This document shows, piece after piece, positions 53,224 to 62,276 of a stretch of 64,000 bases of DNA. A program made the position numbers and the translations under genes. The notes beneath the pieces are model-generated. The model saw only the letters and a program-made list of their open reading frames with translations. It was not told the DNA's origin and searched no databases. How positions within the stretch are numbered: the first letter of the stretch is position 1; every line of letters starts with the position of its first letter. Source of the stretch: Candidatus Saccharimonadota bacterium (lineage in GTDB: Bacteria; Patescibacteriota; Saccharimonadia; Saccharimonadales; Saccharimonadaceae); assembly GCA_017421325.1 (NCBI GenBank), contig JAFOJO010000024.1, forward strand, positions 27,005-91,004. The letters run 5' to 3'.

Positions 53224-53886
53224 ATCTTTATTATACAACGTTTGAGATCGTTCAACTAGAAACTGCGGCGGGTTTGTTTTTGTATGATTTTTATTTAGTG
53301 ATTCACAATATATCCACCACAATTTGATTGGTTTACGCGAAGTAAGCCATAGTAGATTGTGGCCGTTGAGAGACTTATTGTGTTTCGATCTCACGATCAT
53401 ATAGAGTTTTATTGGGAGGTGTGTTTAAGGAAAGAGCGCACGATTTTGGTTTCGCATCTCGCTAATATTGATGCGCGCCAGAGCTCCTAGATGATCGATC
53501 TCAAACTTTTTTAATGTACGACTTTTTGTTTAGCGTTTTTGTTTAATTATTCGCTGATTTAAGTTTATGATATTTTTTCACAAAATGCAAGAGCTTTTTT
53601 GGACTTTTTTTATATTTTTTCACACCCTGAGTTTTTCGCATTTGTGGAAAACTTCCCTGTTAATTTCCCGAACAAAGCTAGTTGAAGTTTTTCGTTTTTT
53701 GTGGTGTAATAACCGAACAGTTCTCTGTAGATAATTTGGCGCTTCCCTGTGGGTGCCGGTTTTGCTTGACTTTTTAGCGTAAATGTGATACAATTGAAGT
53801 AGTTGGGTATTTTGTGGTCTAATCGCTTTTAGCGGTTAGTTTTTTGTTTGTATGATATAATTGGGGGAAATAAGTGGAGATAATAC

Positions 53887-54894
53887 ATGGAAAATACCGA
53901 CCCTATAAAGGAAAGTAATGTGGCCGAACCGTTTGATGTCTTTCTCTGGGCGAACGAGATTGATGAAGTAAAAAACAATGTTTCGGCGGAACTGTTTTTG
54001 TTTAACAAAAATTACACACCGTATAAGATAAAATATTCAGACAAGCTGACCGGCGCAGTGAAGTCGATGTTTATGCAAGAGGCAGTGCATTATATTATAG
54101 AGGAGGCAGACAAGGGTCTGGAATGCCGCGAATACGAGCGGGCTGATGGTGAGGAGAAGGTGATTTATCGTACTTCCCTTTCAAAAGTTGGCCGCGCTGA
54201 AACTTTAATCCACCTGATTGAAAATGAGTATAAAGATATAGATTATTTCTCGGAAAACGAGTACGATTTTAAGAAGGTTAAGGGCATTATTGCAAAGTTT
54301 ACTTACCCGGGCGAAGACGGTATGAAAACTTTCTATATTGCGAAGATTTTGCCAGCTTCGGCGGCACTAAAGGGTGCGACGTCCTGGGAAATTAATGGTG
54401 AAAGTTTTGAGCCGTTCTCTGCCGAGATTGCTCTCAAAATGCCAGAAGATAACCAAGTAGCAATAGTGGATGGCACGATTATTGTGTTTAACCAAGCTAA
54501 GTTTGAAAATTTATTCCAATATGATTATAAATCTCAGGTGATTGCTGAGGCGAAGGCAAAGGAACTCACCGAGAAGTATAAGCTATCCTTTGCGGAGGGG
54601 TTGACTTTGGATTCCCTTTTGGCAGATAAGAAACCTATTCTTAAAAAAGTACAGGCGATGGATATTGCCGAAGAAATGCCGCAAGATAAACTGCTAGATT
54701 ATGCAGATGAGATGCAGCTAGAACTAATGACAGATGATGATGGTTCGATCATCATCATGGACGATAAAGACCTCACAATGTTCGTGAATTTATTGAATGA
54801 AGATTATTATGTATCGCCGGTAAATGGTAAGCGGTACGAAATAAAGTCCAAAAAATTGCTGGGCGAGCCAGATGGTGAACCGCCGAGAGGATAG
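53887..54894 (+). CDS. Acidic protein, possibly KwaB/DUF4868-like
   Basis: Recalled resemblance to the DUF4868 family (FNQAKFE.LF.Y; LLNEDY); not verified. Confidence 0.45.
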   Translation: MENTDPIKESNVAEPFDVFLWANEIDEVKNNVSAELFLFNKNYTPYKIKYSDKLTGAVKSMFMQEAVHYIIEEADKGLECREYERADGEEKVIYRTSLSKVGRAETLIHLIENEYKDIDYFSENEYDFKKVKGIIAKFTYPGEDGMKTFYIAKILPASAALKGATSWEINGESFEPFSAEIALKMPEDNQVAIVDGTIIVFNQAKFENLFQYDYKSQVIAEAKAKELTEKYKLSFAEGLTLDSLLADKKPILKKVQAMDIAEEMPQDKLLDYADEMQLELMTDDDGSIIIMDDKDLTMFVNLLNEDYYVSPVNGKRYEIKSKKLLGEPDGEPPRG

Positions 54895-55028: not shown

Positions 55029-55565
55029 TTATTTTTGTAATTCAAAATACGCAGTTTCTACAAAATTGGATTCGCCGAGGGTTTCGAAGGTTTTTTGTAA
55101 ATCTGATTTTGCGGCGGCGACAGAGTCGTTGGCAGCAAGATTGGATTCTATTTTGGCGTAGTAGCCATTTTTGCCGTCTATTTTATCTAAGTAAATATAG
55201 GTGCCTTCACCCATTTTCAGCTCTTGGCGACGACGGGAGACTTCGCCGGCTGGTTTGAAGCCCAGCTGCAAGATGATATTTACGGTATTTTCGTAATCCT
55301 TGATAGGCGTTTCCTCTACCACATCTACGCCAGAATCTTCGATATGACGGCGCAGAATGAGCGAATATTTGGGCGGTTTGTCTACTGCTTTCATTTCGGT
55401 GCGCATTACTAGGCGCGGTAAATTCATTCCCCGTTTGTAGCCACGCGGCACATAGACACGATCGTGCTGCCAATAGATACTCGAAAAATCTAAATCAATA
55501 TCAGAAAGCTTTTCTTCAAACTTATCACGGCTGGTGAGCTTACATTTTAAGATTACTTTTTTCAT
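55029..55565 (-). CDS. CYTH-domain protein
   Basis: QHDRVY, LVMR, V.RRRQE, IYLDKID..GYYAKIE. Confidence 0.75.
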   Translation of the reverse strand: MKKVILKCKLTSRDKFEEKLSDIDLDFSSIYWQHDRVYVPRGYKRGMNLPRLVMRTEMKAVDKPPKYSLILRRHIEDSGVDVVEETPIKDYENTVNIILQLGFKPAGEVSRRRQELKMGEGTYIYLDKIDGKNGYYAKIESNLAANDSVAAAKSDLQKTFETLGESNFVETAYFELQK

Positions 55566-55901
55566 AGGTTAATTATAACACATTCTGCTTGGGGAATTTT
55601 AGCGCGGGTGAAAAATCGAAAAAATCAAAATTTTATACATTTTACTACCGCTTAGAATAAGCAGAGCGGGATGAATTTTAAGCCTAGACGGTTTGTGATA
55701 AAATTATTGTTCGCGCAGCAAAATATTTTTGTGCGGGTGGGGGTTGAAATTATAAATAGAGTGTGCATATACTATAGGCGGGTTGGCTCCGGAGTTTAGT
55801 GGACGCGAGATTCACAAGCCCTAAAAAGAGTTTGTGGTTGTGTGAGGGTCCATTAAACGGTTATTCTAGGCAGACTAGGATCCTAGAAGGGAGATGATTA
55901 A

Positions 55902-55973
55902 ATGACCATACAGATTAATCTGCTATGTATCATCTTTTCCGGACGGAAACGCCGAAGTAAAAAATCTAGCTAG
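55902..55973 (+). CDS. Putative type I toxin-like peptide A (MTIQINLLCIIFSGRKRRSKKSS)
   Basis: Promoter TTGAAA-18-TATACT (55744-73), structured leader, SD AGGGAG 8 nt upstream, terminator 56004-56033. Confidence 0.55.
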   Translation: MTIQINLLCIIFSGRKRRSKKSS

Positions 55974-56035
55974 CTACAAAGCTAACTAGACAACCCAAAA
56001 CTTAGAGAAGTCGTCCTAGAAGGCTTCTCTTTTAT
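55958..56035 (-). ncRNA. Putative antisense RNA A
   Basis: TAGACA-17-TACAAT with extended TG (-10 element 56042-50); two hairpins ending in a T-run. Confidence 0.55.
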
Positions 56036-56047
56036 GCTTTGATTGTA

Positions 56048-57673
56048 TCACGAAATTATCTCTATGTCTACAATGCGAGCCTCGGCAGATTTTACACCGT
56101 TGAAATCATTCTCCATTAGTTTAATCAGTGGTGCTATCTTATCTTCTGGAGTGAGCGCTAGCCATTCTTCGGGAGCATAAAAGGCGACGAGTTTAAGATT
56201 GTTGCCTTTTTTATCTCTAATATCTAAGCGGAGATGATTTTGATCTGTACCCATATGAGAGACATTAGCGATATCTACTTCTGGCAAGCGGAAAATTGGC
56301 TCTTCGTTCCCTGCGCCAAAAGGTTCTAAAGATTTTAGCTCGTCCAGGAATCCTAGAGATAAATCGGCCAGGCTAGAGACATCTAAATCAGCATGATTTT
56401 TAAGGCAATCTTCCTGGCCGGTGAGATGTAGACTTTTATAATACTCGTTGATTTTCTCACGGAAACTATAGAGTTGTTTGCCATCCACCCGCACACCAGC
56501 GGCGCCAGCATGGCCACCGCCGCCGATAATGGAATCTTTAGCAAAATCTAGTGCGGCGGCTAGGCTAAAATCACCGAAGCTACGTCCGGAACCTTTAAAA
56601 ATACCGTTCCCTACCTCTGATAATACAAAGGCTGGGCGGTGATAATCTTCTACTAGGCGGCCAGCGATGATGCCCAAAATTCCCTCGTGCCAGACACCAG
56701 TTTCTATAATTACTGGGTCATCTGAAATGCCCCGAGTGGAAATCTCTTTGATGGCGGCTTGCTGTTCTGCTTTGCGTTTTTTATTGAGCTCTTCTAGCCG
56801 TTCGGCCAGGGTGGCAGCATCAGTAGGAGAGGTGGCGCGGAGCAAATCTAGCGAAAGGTGAGCGGATTTTAGCCGGCCGGCGGCGTTTAACCGTGGGCCA
56901 ATCTGAAAGCCGATGCTTTCGGCGGTAAGAGTTTTTACCCTAGCTCTATTCATTAGTTCCTTCAGCCCGGCGCGGCGAGTTTTGGCTAGCACTTTTACTC
57001 CGTAATAGCCGAGAATACGGTTTTCACCGGTGAGGAGCATATTGTCACAGATAGTGCCGATGAGCACCAAGTCTAGCAGCCATTTTTCTTGGCCGCTAGG
57101 GATTATCCCTTTCCTTACTAAGCCTTGGGCGAGTTTAAAGGCTACCCCTACACCGGCGAGGTTTTTAAGATTTGGTTTTTCTTCTACAAAATCTGGACGT
57201 TTGGGATTAACCACCGCGAGAGCATTTGGCAAATCTGTGCTACATTCGTGGTGGTCTGTAACGATGGTGTCAATTTTTAAGGTATTTAGTTCATCTATAA
57301 TGGCGTGATTTTTCGAGCCACAGTCTACCGTAATCACCAAGGTAACTCCCTGTTTTTTGGCGCGAGTAATTAGGCGCGGACTCATACCGTAACCATCCGC
57401 AAAACGGTCTGGCAACATAATATCTATATTTTCAGGATTGGCGCCGGCCAGGGTAAGCGCATCCGCCATTACGGTACTAGCGGTGACGCCGTCCACATCG
57501 TAGTCGCCATAGATTAGAATCTTCTCGTTCTCTGCTATAGCTTGATTAATTCTGTCTGCCGCCTTATCTAAATCCGGCAAAACGAATGGGTCAGTAAGAT
57601 TTTCGTATCTAGGGGCTAAAAAACTGCGATCTAGCCCACGCGCTTCTAATAAGCGTTCAAATAATTTACTCAT
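56048..57673 (-). CDS. recJ: ssDNA exonuclease RecJ
   Basis: IYGDYDVDG, TVDCG, TDHH, PRLNAAGRL, GGGHAGAAG. Confidence 0.96.
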   Translation of the reverse strand: MSKLFERLLEARGLDRSFLAPRYENLTDPFVLPDLDKAADRINQAIAENEKILIYGDYDVDGVTASTVMADALTLAGANPENIDIMLPDRFADGYGMSPRLITRAKKQGVTLVITVDCGSKNHAIIDELNTLKIDTIVTDHHECSTDLPNALAVVNPKRPDFVEEKPNLKNLAGVGVAFKLAQGLVRKGIIPSGQEKWLLDLVLIGTICDNMLLTGENRILGYYGVKVLAKTRRAGLKELMNRARVKTLTAESIGFQIGPRLNAAGRLKSAHLSLDLLRATSPTDAATLAERLEELNKKRKAEQQAAIKEISTRGISDDPVIIETGVWHEGILGIIAGRLVEDYHRPAFVLSEVGNGIFKGSGRSFGDFSLAAALDFAKDSIIGGGGHAGAAGVRVDGKQLYSFREKINEYYKSLHLTGQEDCLKNHADLDVSSLADLSLGFLDELKSLEPFGAGNEEPIFRLPEVDIANVSHMGTDQNHLRLDIRDKKGNNLKLVAFYAPEEWLALTPEDKIAPLIKLMENDFNGVKSAEARIVDIEIIS

Positions 57674-60109: not shown

Positions 60110-60172
60110 TTATTGTCTTTCCGCCTAAACAGTAATTTTTGGCTTTAGCGCTAAATGTGATATAATGTAAAC

Positions 60173-60243
60173 ATAAAGAGGAAGTTCTCTAGGAAAACTC
60201 CCTCGAATGGGTTGTTAGATTAGGCTAGTAGCCTAATCTTTTT
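60173..60243 (+). ncRNA. Putative antisense RNA B
   Basis: TGATATAAT (60158-66); hairpin 60178-60203; terminator 60216-38 plus T-run. Confidence 0.55.
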
Positions 60244-60297
60244 CTTCGGTTTGTCGTCTTTGTTCCGGTTGACAATGATCAAAGCGATTTGAAACAT
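60232..60297 (-). CDS. Putative type I toxin-like peptide B (MFQIALIIVNRNKDDKPKKKD)
   Basis: Promoter TTGACT-18-TATACT (60426-55, minus), leader homologous to module A, SD AGGAAGG. Confidence 0.55.
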
Positions 60298-60605
60298 TTT
60301 AACCTTCCTAGGGCAACTTTGGCACACCTAGAATAGCCGTTTAGTGAGCCCTCACACAACCGCAAACTCTTTTCAGGGCTTGTGAATTTTTGTGCCCACT
60401 AAACCCCCGAAGCCAACCCGCCCATAGTATAGGCAGATTGAATTTGAAAAGTCAACCCCTTACTTGGGAAATTGGGAGCGTAAGAAGTTTTACCTCTAAA
60501 GAATTAAGATGGTACTTGCGGTTATTTTAAGCCTAGGCGGAATAGGAGTGCATACCTTTGGCGAAAATGTGGGTAGTTTACTCGTAACCTAAATTGGTAA
60601 ATTCG

Positions 60606-62276
60606 TCAGCGGGCGAGACAACGGATAGAACGTCCGTGAGTTCTGCCGCTGCCATATCTACCAGCTAAATCCACCGTGTGCTTACCAAAGTATAAATAGT
60701 ATGTGCTCCTATAGTCAGAAACGGTGCTAGACCAATTACTACCACCAGAACCAGCAAAATAGAGCGGCCCACCGTCTATATTTCCAGATCGCGTAAAATA
60801 TAAAGGCGCATCGATCCAACCTACGTCGGAGTCAATGTTGTCTCTATTGTATAAATTATTAAGTTTAGTGAATTCATTAGCATCTTGACTTGAAATTACT
60901 GGCAATCTCCATCCTTTAGGACAAATAGAGTTTTGCGGATTTTTAGTTATGTTAACATAGGTATTAGACATGAATGAACTACTATCGTCGCTAGCAATGG
61001 CGGCAGACCAGTTGTAGTAATTGCCCGTTGAGCCATGGGTACTATTATTGTGGTATGGAGTTCGTGAGAAATGTTCACAAGCAGCAATAAGATAGTTGCA
61101 GTCCGACGTATCGTCGTTTGCATCCCAATACCATTCGCCTACATCCATAGAATAAGCTTTATTATTGTTATTTACCCACGCCGCACCGGTTCCAGTGTTG
61201 TAATTTCTGGTGACATTCTCTGGAGTCCAAGTAATAATTCTGGTATTCGGGTCATACGAGTAGTGTAAGTTATAGGCCCCAGTAAGTGAGTTGTCGTTTA
61301 GGTCTGTTTCCTCTGACGTAAGAGCTATAGAAGAAGATAGATCTAGATCTAGATTTTGTGTCATCCAACAGTGCCCATCTTTTAGTTTGGAGACGTAGTA
61401 TAGTTTATTGTCTCGTATGTCCACTAGTTTTTCTTCTGTTTCATAAGTAGTGGTTAAGGAGCATATTCTACTACTCATGTCTTGCATTTTGTAGTAGTTG
61501 CCAGTTTCACCTGTGATAGGATCTGTGACTTGTACTTTGTCTTTACCGGCTATATCAAAGGCTTCTTCCATAGTAGTAAGTTGGCTAGCATCATATGGGT
61601 GAGTCATGGTATATTTAACTTTACCTAGATAAGTTCCTGCTGGTTGGATGGGATTAGTGTATATTTCGTAGGTGGTATTAAAGTATGAACCAGTTAAGTC
61701 CGTGTTTAGATCCATGCTGGTGCCGGATGTTCTATAAGCCACTATAGTATCTGTACTAGGTATGAGATTATAGTTATTATATACATCTACTACAGTAGGA
61801 GCATAAGTTCCATTACTACTAGTTAACTTCATAGCCCAGGATGAAGGGGTATTGGCAGTTATTGTGCTACTATCATACACATTAGTATGAATATTATAGT
61901 TATCATTAATACTACTAACTAAATCCGTATTACCATCTGTATCATTACTACTACCTATAGCATAGATGAAATAGCCATTATTATCATTACAGTAAGCATT
62001 AATTCTAGTATTACCAATATTTCCTTCATATTGGCCATTAACTAATGTGGCATTATGTGGAGTAAGTATATTAGCGCTAATAGTACATGAAGTAGGTAGA
62101 GATAAAGAAACGCTGTCTGTACTAGAACTATATGCAGAACTATGAGATGATAAATGAGATAAAACAACACTAGAAACAACAAGAAGAGGAACAGAAACTA
62201 ACAATACATTACGGAAAGCATAGTAGAAGAAATCTGCTCTACTACTCATTAATGATTGTTTTACTTTGTGGCCCAT
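60606..62276 (-). CDS. FISUMP-domain surface protein, paralog 4
   Basis: Same architecture; N-domain closest to paralog 2. Confidence 0.75.
   Translation of the reverse strand: MGHKVKQSLMSSRADFFYYAFRNVLLVSVPLLVVSSVVLSHLSSHSSAYSSSTDSVSLSLPTSCTISANILTPHNATLVNGQYEGNIGNTRINAYCNDNNGYFIYAIGSSNDTDGNTDLVSSINDNYNIHTNVYDSSTITANTPSSWAMKLTSSNGTYAPTVVDVYNNYNLIPSTDTIVAYRTSGTSMDLNTDLTGSYFNTTYEIYTNPIQPAGTYLGKVKYTMTHPYDASQLTTMEEAFDIAGKDKVQVTDPITGETGNYYKMQDMSSRICSLTTTYETEEKLVDIRDNKLYYVSKLKDGHCWMTQNLDLDLSSSIALTSEETDLNDNSLTGAYNLHYSYDPNTRIITWTPENVTRNYNTGTGAAWVNNNNKAYSMDVGEWYWDANDDTSDCNYLIAACEHFSRTPYHNNSTHGSTGNYYNWSAAIASDDSSSFMSNTYVNITKNPQNSICPKGWRLPVISSQDANEFTKLNNLYNRDNIDSDVGWIDAPLYFTRSGNIDGGPLYFAGSGGSNWSSTVSDYRSTYYLYFGKHTVDLAGRYGSGRTHGRSIRCLAR

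What the first reader, a model, noticed from the sequence alone, without database searches (positions are those of the whole stretch)
55744..56050. Type I toxin-antitoxin-like module A (between CYTH gene and recJ)
Seen: promoter, then a ~125-nt structured leader, a 23-aa peptide (hydrophobic N-half, basic tail) and a terminator. A convergent promoter overlapping the recJ stop drives a ~78-nt two-hairpin RNA. The mRNA 5' GGGTTG can pair with 3' CAACCC. TCCTAGAAGG occurs both at the RBS (55881-90) and in the terminator (56015-24), so the antisense first hairpin is also complementary to the RBS region. Established: this is the design of type I systems (Fst/par direct repeats; hok and AapA 5'-3' fold-back). 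Inference: a type I TA family; I know of none described from this lineage. The hydrophobic stretch is shorter than in classic TM toxins.
Basis: partly seen in the sequence, partly recalled or inferred. Interest (0 to 1): 0.8.

Follow-up and report, generated by a model that had tools for sequence, protein, structure and literature searches.

The report
Candidate type I toxin-antitoxin module, Saccharibacteria
A roughly 300-base self-contained cassette in a rumen Saccharibacteria genome encodes a tightly folded mRNA for a conserved 23-residue peptide and a convergent ~75-nt antisense RNA; it looks like a new family of type I toxin-antitoxin modules in a lineage where the literature held here describes none, but toxicity and the antisense transcript are not yet shown.

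Summary
It holds a promoter, a 122-nt structured leader, an SD plus a 23-codon ORF, and a terminator. It also has 5'-GGGUUG/3'-CAACCC closure and a convergent extended -10 promoter over the recJ stop, giving a predicted 77-nt two-hairpin antisense RNA.

A second copy lies at 60153-60463 (- strand). At least 16 related modules were found in rumen Candidatus Saccharibacteria contigs, in four peptide types (A, A2, B, C).

All keep an SD and a 20-25-codon ORF, with substitutions mostly synonymous or conservative. Every copy with enough flanking sequence to judge also keeps an antisense promoter and an antisense intrinsic terminator.

The two 3' hairpins covary strongly: 17 of 20 pairs change on both sides. 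Related genomes have empty sites, so the cassette is a presence/absence insertion.

Metatranscriptome contigs hold the mRNA region while the flanking genes are absent.

No Rfam, Pfam, NCBIfam, phage or plasmid match was found.

Three things are not shown: an antisense transcript, peptide toxicity, and a membrane-spanning segment (only about 10 hydrophobic residues). The 10-nt RBS/terminator repeat is allele-specific, not a family feature.

Verdict: a new type I TA-like family, with the architecture well supported and the function inferred.

The parts
55583..56060 (+). Inserted segment at the CYTH-recJ site (478 nt). It is absent from related genomes, where the two genes are 7-50 nt apart. The insertion replaced the last codons of recJ.
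   Evidence: Empty sites in L019, L021 and L023 versus filled sites in the window, L016, L017, L024 and L025. No terminal inverted repeats or clear target duplication.
55744..55773 (+). Sense promoter TTGAAA-18-TATACT, preceded by a conserved G-run
   Evidence: Conserved in all modules (GGGTTGAnnT ... TGCCTATAMT, 6 nt, GGGTTGG).
55780..56035 (+). Predicted peptide mRNA (about 255 nt), highly structured and closed by 5'-3' pairing
   Evidence: MFE -87.7 kcal/mol, z -5.1. The same architecture appears in the MFE folds of 15 homologues. RNA-library contigs cover 55830-56040 while the flanks are at or near zero.
55780..55901 (+). 122-nt leader. 5' GGGUUGG and CUCCGG are closing-stem strands. A long hairpin (about 55794-55858) has a conserved base and a swappable apex. 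There is a CUAG-rich small hairpin at 55863-55881.
   Evidence: The apex is exchanged between alleles carrying the same CYTH protein.
55885..55893 (+). Shine-Dalgarno AGAAGGGAG, 8 nt before the ATG. In most copies it is predicted to pair with codons 10-13 (AUCAUCUUUUCC) or with the upstream UUCUAGG.
55902..55973 (+). 23-codon ORF MTIQINLLCIIFSGRKRRSKKSS (stop TAG at 55971-55973)
   Evidence: An ORF of 20-25 codons with an SD is present in all 16 modules of four types. Substitutions are mostly synonymous or conservative.
55952..55957 (+). CCGAAG, the inner strand of the 5'-3' closure. It pairs with 5' CUUCGG in most copies. It is conserved in types A, A2 and B in different reading frames.
55959..55990 (+). 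A-run plus hairpin 2. On the - strand this reads as hairpin plus U-run, the intrinsic terminator of the antisense RNA. The stem sequence is hypervariable but always complementary.
   Evidence: Terminator-like hit on the - strand. Covariation. Twelve or more different stems.
55991..55996 (+). CAACCC, pairs with the 5'-terminal GGGUUG (fold-back element). It lies inside the sense/antisense overlap.
   Evidence: A 6-nt or longer complement to the invariant 5' end is present in every type (CAACCC, CCAACC, CCAAUC, CCAACCAACCC).
56004..56035 (+). mRNA terminator hairpin with a conserved UCCUAGA loop (CUAG fits the YUNR pattern) and a T-run
   Evidence: helix 3: 9 of 9 pairs with changes on both sides
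56042..56070 (-). Antisense promoter TAGACA-17-TACAAT with an extended -10 TG. It overlaps the recJ stop codon.
   Evidence: An extended -10 TGnTAyAAT is conserved in all 11 copies with enough flanking sequence, and type C has TTGATT-17-TATAAT.
55959..56036 (-). Predicted antisense RNA, about 77 nt: hairpin 1 (complement of the mRNA terminator), a GGGUUG linker, then hairpin 2 and a U-run
   Evidence: The transcript itself is not demonstrated.
60153..60463 (-). Second module (B) between priA and a 556-aa gene. It has the same promoter, leader (82% identical), closure, two 3' hairpins and an antisense extended -10 TGATATAAT. Its ORF at 60220-60297 encodes MFQIALIIVNRNKDDKPKKKIRLLA.
   Evidence: A cDNA insert at 60269-60405 is present in a metatranscriptome.

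Best explanation
This is a self-contained, two-promoter sense/antisense cassette that most likely works as a type I toxin-antitoxin module.

**Sense RNA.** The + strand promoter makes a ~255-nt mRNA. Its ends are clamped together (GGGUUG:CAACCC, and in most copies CUUCGG:CCGAAG). In most copies its SD is buried in a local stem, so the 23-aa peptide is made poorly from the full-length fold. The peptide has a short beta-branched hydrophobic head and a polybasic tail.

**Antisense RNA.** A convergent extended -10 promoter makes a ~75-nt antisense RNA. It is fully complementary to the last ORF codons, hairpin 2, the CAACCC clamp and the terminator.

**Proposed interaction.** Contact probably starts between the complementary CUAG (YUNR-type) loops. 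The ~75-bp duplex then leads to mRNA inactivation, most likely by double-strand-specific cleavage, as in TxpA/RatA and BsrG/SR4. The hypervariable but always self-complementary hairpin 2 would make each copy's antisense RNA specific for its own mRNA.

**Shown here:** sequence architecture, conservation, covariation, coding-type substitutions, insertion polymorphism, and transcription of the mRNA region.

**Inferred:** existence of the antisense transcript, RNA-RNA pairing, the mode of repression, and peptide toxicity.
For: - **Architecture at the stated coordinates:**
- **Family size:** a second copy in the window and 16 or more modules in related Saccharibacteria contigs.
- **Four peptide types:** all have an SD and a 20-25-codon ORF ending at hairpin 2.
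- **Coding signal:** within type A, 5 synonymous versus 2 conservative changes plus one 2-codon block. Between A and A2 over codons 1-12, 5 synonymous versus 3 non-synonymous. Between the two type B copies, 3 synonymous versus 1 conservative.
- **Antisense signals:** an extended -10 in all 11 copies with enough flank, a -35/-10 promoter in type C, and a hairpin plus U5-8 terminator in the 12 copies with enough sequence to judge. Predicted length is 71-77 nt.
- **Native promoter type:** the same extended -10 drives the neighbouring CYTH gene.
- **Covariation in the two 3' hairpins:** 17 of 20 pairs changed on both sides, 90% of cells paired versus 36-60% when the partner is slid, 0 of 500 shuffles as high.
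- **5'-3' closure:** recovered in the MFE folds of all 15 homologues folded. CCGAAG is conserved in different reading frames in types A and B.
- **SD sequestration:** P(unpaired) is 0.0-0.2 in 6 of 8 copies.
- **Empty sites in relatives:**
- **Recombination:** mosaic exchange of segments among copies.
- **Expression:** RNA-library contigs cover the leader and ORF while flanking genes are at or near zero. One adapter-flanked cDNA has Read 1 on the strand opposite the module B mRNA.
- **No known family matches:**
Against: - No strand-resolved reads were available, so the antisense RNA is only predicted.
- The hydrophobic stretch is about 10 residues in types A and B. In type C it is an alternating EIEFYFKF. 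This is too short for a transmembrane helix, unlike classic type I toxins.
- The basic tail partly coincides with the A-run that the antisense terminator needs, so part of the peptide composition could be a by-product of the RNA signal.
- Blocking or removing the antisense target region does not change predicted SD accessibility. No translational-control mechanism follows from thermodynamics alone.
- The RBS/terminator repeat is not conserved.
- Toxicity is untested.
Confidence: 0.6

Rival explanations
1. It is a regulated small-protein gene, not a toxin. The 20-25-aa peptide has a benign cellular role (for example a membrane-interface or nucleic-acid-binding micro-protein), and the antisense RNA simply tunes its level.
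For: The ORF is under purifying selection, but its hydrophobic segment is too short for a pore or TM toxin. The mRNA is readily detected in metatranscriptomes, which a tightly silenced toxin need not be.
Against: A housekeeping micro-protein would not be expected to be multi-copy or absent from close relatives at the same sites. It would also not be expected to be replaced by unrelated peptides at one locus (types A, B and C downstream of priA), or to decay in place (the leader-less copy in L024). Those are traits of selfish or addictive modules.
Confidence: 0.2
2. It is a non-coding RNA pair (a structured sRNA and its antisense partner, or an RNA element with another role), and the ORF is incidental.
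For: The leader is more conserved than the ORF between modules A and B. Several conserved elements are RNA-level: CCGAAG in different frames, the GGGUUG ends, and the CUAG loops.
Against: An SD at 6-9 nt plus ATG plus a 20-25-codon ORF is kept in four sequence-diverged types. Changes concentrate at third codon positions. No Rfam family matches even at E<=10.
Confidence: 0.12
3. It is an intergenic repeat acting as a bidirectional terminator or insulator for convergent genes (REP- or MITE-like), with fortuitous promoter-like sequences.
For: In the window both copies abut the 3' end of a gene (recJ, priA). The antisense terminator would also end recJ read-through transcripts. Contig breaks show that the element is repetitive.
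Against: There are no terminal inverted repeats or target duplications. A 120-nt leader, SD and ORF are not needed for termination. In L001 and L002 the neighbouring genes are arranged differently. Both promoters are conserved.
Confidence: 0.05

Closest known systems
Fst / RNA I-RNA II (par locus of Enterococcus faecalis pAD1)
   Same: From established knowledge of that system: toxin mRNA and antitoxin RNA are transcribed convergently and share a bidirectional terminator. The interaction starts at a U-turn (YUNR) terminator loop. A 5' structure limits translation. The peptide has a hydrophobic head and a charged tail. Here, transcription is convergent across the terminator, the conserved CUAG loop fits YUNR, the leader is structured, and the SD is sequestered.
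   Different: No sequence similarity of peptide or RNA. The DRa/DRb-type repeats around the start codon are not a conserved feature here. The overlap also includes a second hairpin, a 5'-3' clamp element and the ORF end. The peptide is 20-25 aa with only about 10 hydrophobic residues.
hok/sok and AapA1/IsoA1
   Same: From established knowledge: the full-length toxin mRNA is kept inert by long-distance 5'-3' pairing and SD sequestration. These loci are multi-copy chromosomal repeats. Here, GGGUUG:CAACCC and CUUCGG:CCGAAG closure is conserved.
   Different: In those systems the antisense RNA targets the 5' region or translation initiation region, and activation needs 3' trimming. Here the antisense overlaps the 3' end, including the clamp itself. 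There is no mok-like reading frame and no homology.
TxpA/RatA, BsrG/SR4, BsrE/SR5, YonT/SR6 (Bacillus subtilis)
   Same: From established knowledge: the antisense RNA overlaps the 3' end of the toxin mRNA by about 75-120 nt and acts mainly by promoting degradation. That is the mode the accessibility calculation favours here by default.
   Different: Those toxins are 30-59 aa with a full transmembrane helix, and they sit on prophages or skin-type elements. Here there is no homology, no phage context, and the peptide is much shorter.
Ibs/Sib and Ldr/Rdl repeats of E. coli
   Same: From established knowledge: these were first noticed as repeated ~300-500-nt intergenic cassettes with very small ORFs (Ibs is 18-19 aa). 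Copy number varies between strains, and sequence differences make each antisense RNA copy-specific. Here the cassette is multi-copy, polymorphic for presence, and has a hypervariable hairpin 2.
   Different: Sib and Rdl RNAs overlap the ORF or 5' region, and Ibs peptides are hydrophobic throughout. No homology.

Membership tests
Type I toxin-antitoxin systems (general class) | Small ORF (under about 60 aa) with its own RBS on a dedicated, structured mRNA | tested here: met
   An SD plus a 20-25-codon ORF in all 16 modules of four types. A coding-type substitution pattern. Structure z = -5.1.
Type I toxin-antitoxin systems (general class) | Antitoxin is an antisense RNA gene with its own promoter and terminator, complementary to the toxin mRNA | tested here: inconclusive
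   Promoter and intrinsic terminator signals are conserved in every copy with enough flank. The hairpins covary. The available RNA data are unstranded contigs, so the transcript is not shown.
Type I toxin-antitoxin systems (general class) | Peptide is toxic when over-produced, classically through a transmembrane helix | not testable with these tools
   The hydrophobic stretch is only about 10 residues, and the peptide is too short for the structure tool. Induced expression is needed.
Type I toxin-antitoxin systems (general class) | Antisense RNA represses toxin translation or stability | not testable with these tools
   Only thermodynamic modelling was possible. SD accessibility is low and independent of the 3' overlap.
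Fst/RNA II (par) family | Fst-type peptide and par RNA sequence homology | tested here: not met
   No Pfam or NCBIfam hit at E<=10. No Rfam hit at E<=10.
Fst/RNA II (par) family | Convergent transcription with a shared bidirectional terminator | tested here: met
   The sense terminator hairpin is the first hairpin of the predicted antisense RNA. The promoters face each other.
Fst/RNA II (par) family | Direct repeats shared by both RNAs that let the antisense RNA pair around the start codon | tested here: not met
   The 10-nt repeat occurs only in the window-A allele group. It is 5-7 nt in other copies and disrupted in L003 and L004. Duplex energies are no better than shuffles in most copies.
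hok/sok and AapA/IsoA | 5'-3' long-distance pairing that closes the full-length mRNA | tested here: met
   GGGUUG:CAACCC appears in the MFE folds of all 15 homologues folded, and CUUCGG:CCGAAG in about half of them. A complement to the invariant 5' end is present in all types.
hok/sok and AapA/IsoA | Antisense RNA complementary to the 5' region or translation initiation region, plus peptide homology | tested here: not met
   The antisense overlap is at the 3' end. No homology.
Known structured ncRNAs (6S, SRP, tmRNA, RNase P, riboswitches) | Match to a curated covariance model or the tmRNA/tRNA finder | tested here: not met
   No Rfam hit in the whole window at gathering score, nor at E<=10 within the module itself. 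ARAGORN found nothing.

The most novel reading that the evidence does not exclude
These cassettes are a CPR-specific class of RNA-controlled addiction or defence modules. Their effector is not a membrane-spanning toxin but a very short beta-prone, polybasic peptide acting on another target (nucleic acid, ribosome or cell envelope interface). The hypervariable hairpin 2 works as an address code that lets several orthogonal copies coexist and recombine in a genome of about 1 Mb.
Probability: 0.15. Interest if true: 0.8.

Novelty: new member of a known kind. Interest (0 to 1): 0.62.

Why it matters
Saccharibacteria and other CPR/Patescibacteria have tiny genomes and live as epibionts. Their non-coding RNA biology is almost unknown, and no paper in the searched library links type I TA systems to them.

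A multi-copy, transcribed, recombining sense/antisense cassette would add an RNA-based regulatory or addiction layer to these reduced genomes. It would also supply a compact, testable toxin candidate with an unusual design: about 10 hydrophobic residues followed by a polybasic tail.

It also explains unannotated ~480-nt intergenic gaps and contig breaks in rumen Saccharibacteria assemblies. The family gives a natural series of covarying hairpins for studying antisense specificity.

Tried and rejected
- **Known RNA families.** Rfam on the whole window at gathering score, and on 55500-56150 at E<=10, gave nothing relevant. No tRNA or tmRNA was found. I considered 6S, SRP, tmRNA, RNase P and retron msr-msd and rejected them: no model hit, no RT gene, presence/absence polymorphism, and a conserved SD-ORF.
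- **Public collection scans.** The strict leader pattern on species-representative genomes gave one locus. A looser pattern on JGI metagenomes gave four and none in viral contigs.
- **Phage and plasmid records.** blastn found no match.
- **Second antisense target.** RNAduplex of the antisense RNA against the leader and RBS was not better than shuffles except for the window-A allele. I dropped the idea of a conserved second target site.
- **SD accessibility.** Blocking or removing the 3' overlap made no difference, so I do not claim translational control through the clamp.
- **MITE reading.** There are no terminal inverted repeats or target-site duplication.
- **Strand information.** All RNA runs were held as unstranded contigs. 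Only one adapter-flanked cDNA gives a weak hint of strand.
- **Not attempted.** I did not search the protein database with the peptide, because 23-25-aa ORFs fall below usual gene-calling limits. Structure prediction needs at least 30 aa.
Full report
**Observation**

- The + strand promoter is TTGAAA-18-TATACT at 55744-55773. The RNA would start near 55780 with GGGTTGG.
- A 122-nt leader leads to the SD AGAAGGGAG (55885-55893), the ATG at 55902 and a 23-codon ORF, MTIQINLLCIIFSGRKRRSKKSS, ending at 55973.
- Downstream lie an A-run, a 26-nt hairpin (55965-55990), CAACCC (55991-55996) and a terminator hairpin (56004-56030) with a T-run.
- On the - strand, TAGACA-17-TACAAT with an extended -10 TG (56070-56042) overlaps the recJ stop. 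The 55991-55964 hairpin followed by TTTTTT scores as an intrinsic terminator. The predicted antisense RNA is 77 nt with two hairpins.
- The sense RNA folds at -87.7 kcal/mol (z = -5.1, 0 of 200 shuffles), with its 5' GGGUUG paired to CAACCC.
- TCCTAGAAGG occurs twice in the window, at 55881-55890 and 56014-56023, against 0.08 expected.

**It is a family**

A second copy lies on the - strand at 60153-60463, between priA and a 556-aa gene.
- Its leader is 82% identical, and it has the same 5' GGGTTGG and 3' CAACCC.
- Its hairpin sequences differ, and its ORF is different: MFQIALIIVNRNKDDKPKKKIRLLA.
- Profile and covariance-model searches find only these two copies in the 64 kb.

The organism is an uncultured Candidatus Saccharibacteria from rumen and gut metagenomes. 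I collected related contigs with pattern scans and by walking from exact and homologous CYTH and PriA proteins. This gave 16 or more modules in four peptide types:
- **A:** MTIQINLLCIIF(SG/PN)RKRRSKKSS
- **A2 (L025):** MAIEINLLCIIIPRRKSVPKKNLAK
- **B:** MFQIALII(V/I)NRNKDDKPKK...
- **C (L019):** MEIEFYFKFKRKPKTKKVTVQLEEQ

**The ORF behaves as coding**

Every module has an SD 6-9 nt from an ATG and an ORF of 20-25 codons that ends at or in hairpin 2.
- Within type A, point changes are 5 synonymous versus 2 conservative (I/V), plus one two-codon block (SG/PN).
- Between A and A2, codons 1-12 differ by 5 synonymous and 3 non-synonymous changes, leaving INLLCII intact.
- The two type B copies differ by 3 synonymous changes and one V/I change.
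- All four peptide types share a short beta-branched or aromatic hydrophobic head and a Lys/Arg-rich segment.
- None matches Pfam or NCBIfam at a meaningful level.

**The RNA features are selected**

- In the two 3' hairpins, 17 of 20 pairs show changes on both sides. 90% of cells are paired, against 36-60% when the 3' partner is slid, and no shuffle of 500 reaches the observed values.
- Hairpin 2 has at least a dozen different, always complementary stems. This count includes variants seen only in RNA contigs.
- The A-run before hairpin 2 is invariant, so on the other strand the hairpin is always followed by U5-8.
- The antisense promoter is an extended -10 (TGnTAyAAT) in all 11 copies with enough flank, and a -35/-10 promoter in type C.
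- This extended -10 is the native promoter type here. The CYTH gene has TGTGTTATAAT a few bases from its ATG.
- MFE folds of all 15 homologues recover the same architecture: an outer clamp GGGUUG:CAACCC, an inner clamp CUUCGG:CCGAAG in about half of the copies, a long leader hairpin, a small CUAG hairpin, an SD/ORF domain, hairpin 2 and the terminator.
- CCGAAG is kept in types A, A2 and B although it sits in different reading frames. That points to an RNA-level constraint.
- CTAG occurs 7 times in the 256-nt transcript against 1.2 expected. The conserved terminator loop UCCUAGA carries CUAG, which fits the YUNR U-turn pattern known from other antisense systems (established knowledge).

**It is an insertion**

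- In L019 and L021 the CYTH and recJ genes are 7 nt apart, and in L023 they are 50 nt apart. In the window, L016, L017 and L024 they are 480-500 nt apart, and in L025 348 nt.
- Comparing filled and empty sites places the window insertion at 55583-56060. It replaced the last recJ codons (...IVDIEIIS versus ...IVDLDVL).
- Downstream of priA the gap is 1-58 nt in L017, L021 and L028. In the window it holds a type B module, in L016 type A, in L019 type C, and in L024 a leader-deleted, SD-less copy.
- Alleles carrying an identical CYTH protein differ by block replacement of the leader apex or of the 3' hairpins. This indicates recombination among copies.
- There are no terminal inverted repeats or target duplications, and no phage or plasmid matches.

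**Expression**

- Metatranscriptome assemblies hold the module while the flanking genes are absent or lower.
- In libraries labelled RNA-Seq cDNA, a 193-nt contig (depth 22.8) runs from the leader through the ORF to the CAACCC element.
- An adapter-flanked cDNA insert covers 60269-60405 of module B, with priA and the 556-aa gene at zero depth.
- In that insert Read 1 lies on the + strand. This fits a - strand RNA if the library is dUTP-stranded, but that is unknown.
- These data show that the mRNA region is transcribed. They do not resolve the antisense RNA.

**Mechanism**

The best-supported reading is a type I toxin-antitoxin-like module. The mRNA is clamped and SD-sequestered (P(unpaired) 0.0-0.2 in 6 of 8 copies). 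A 3'-overlapping antisense RNA would form a ~75-bp duplex covering the ORF end, hairpin 2, the clamp and the terminator.

Blocking or deleting that region does not change predicted SD accessibility. Repression by duplex-dependent degradation, as in TxpA/RatA or BsrG/SR4, is therefore more likely than direct occlusion of the RBS.

It shrinks to CCUAG elsewhere and is broken in L003 and L004.

Toxicity is inferred from four traits: multi-copy, dispensable, swappable and decaying. The peptide itself does not support it, because its hydrophobic part is too short for a transmembrane helix.

**Comparison and novelty**

- The cassette works like Fst/par in its convergent transcription, shared terminator and U-turn-type loop.
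- It resembles hok and AapA1 in its 5'-3' fold-back.
- It resembles the Bacillus 3'-overlap systems in the position of the antisense RNA.
- It is a member of none of these families by sequence.
- No paper in the library links type I TA to Saccharibacteria or Patescibacteria.

I rate it a new member (a new family) of a known kind, with interest 0.62. The confidence that it truly functions as a toxin-antitoxin is 0.6.

Noticed in passing
window 53887-54894 (+): This 335-aa gene carries a KwaB (Kiwa defence) Pfam domain in the precomputed annotation. It is conserved in the same position in all relatives examined. No KwaA-like gene lies next to it; the upstream neighbour is rsmH on the other strand.
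   Followed up: no
window 53401-53886: The ~490-nt gap between rsmH and the KwaB-like gene is kept, at roughly 510-770 nt, in every related locus. It has no Rfam hit at gathering score, and its content is unexplained.
   Followed up: no
window 55572-55582 (- strand): The CYTH-like gene has an extended -10 promoter, TGTGTTATAAT, ending about 6 nt before its ATG, so its mRNA may be leaderless. In genomes without the module the same promoter lies inside the 3' end of recJ.
   Followed up: partly
window 55583-55740: The ~155-nt spacer that travels with module A contains a direct repeat of the sequence just upstream of the module's -35 (ATTTTAGCGCGGGTG at 55596 versus ATTTTTGTGCGGGTG at 55725). It also has an extended -10-like TGATAAAAT at 55696 on the + strand. 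It may be a remnant of another copy, or a second promoter.
   Followed up: no
L024 11934-12130 (-): This module copy, downstream of priA, has lost the whole leader and SD. The promoter is fused about 10 nt before the ATG, while the ORF, both 3' hairpins and the antisense promoter are intact. It looks like a decaying or disarmed copy.
   Followed up: partly
L019 11975-12320 (-): This diverged 'type C' module has the same promoter and 5' GGGTTGG, but a different leader hairpin, a strong SD (AAAGGAGG) and an unrelated 25-aa peptide, MEIEFYFKFKRKPKTKKVTVQLEEQ. It occupies the same priA-downstream site as module B.
   Followed up: partly
window 56048-56060 and L019 7983-8000: The insertion of module A replaced the last few codons of recJ. 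The new stop codon and C-terminal residues (…IEIIS) are supplied by the cassette, inside its antisense promoter. recJ read-through transcripts would therefore carry the antisense sequence and end at its terminator.
   Followed up: partly
window 55830-55972, run X39: The 193-nt RNA-library contig ends exactly at ...CAACAACCC, the clamp element upstream of the terminator hairpin. This could reflect a 3'-processed mRNA, or it could simply be a unitig break.
   Followed up: no
window 60606-62276 (-): This 556-aa protein has a faint Fib_succ_major-type C-terminal hit in homologues. The gene is itself variable: it is absent from L023, L025 and L026, and a different gene follows priA in L027.
   Followed up: no
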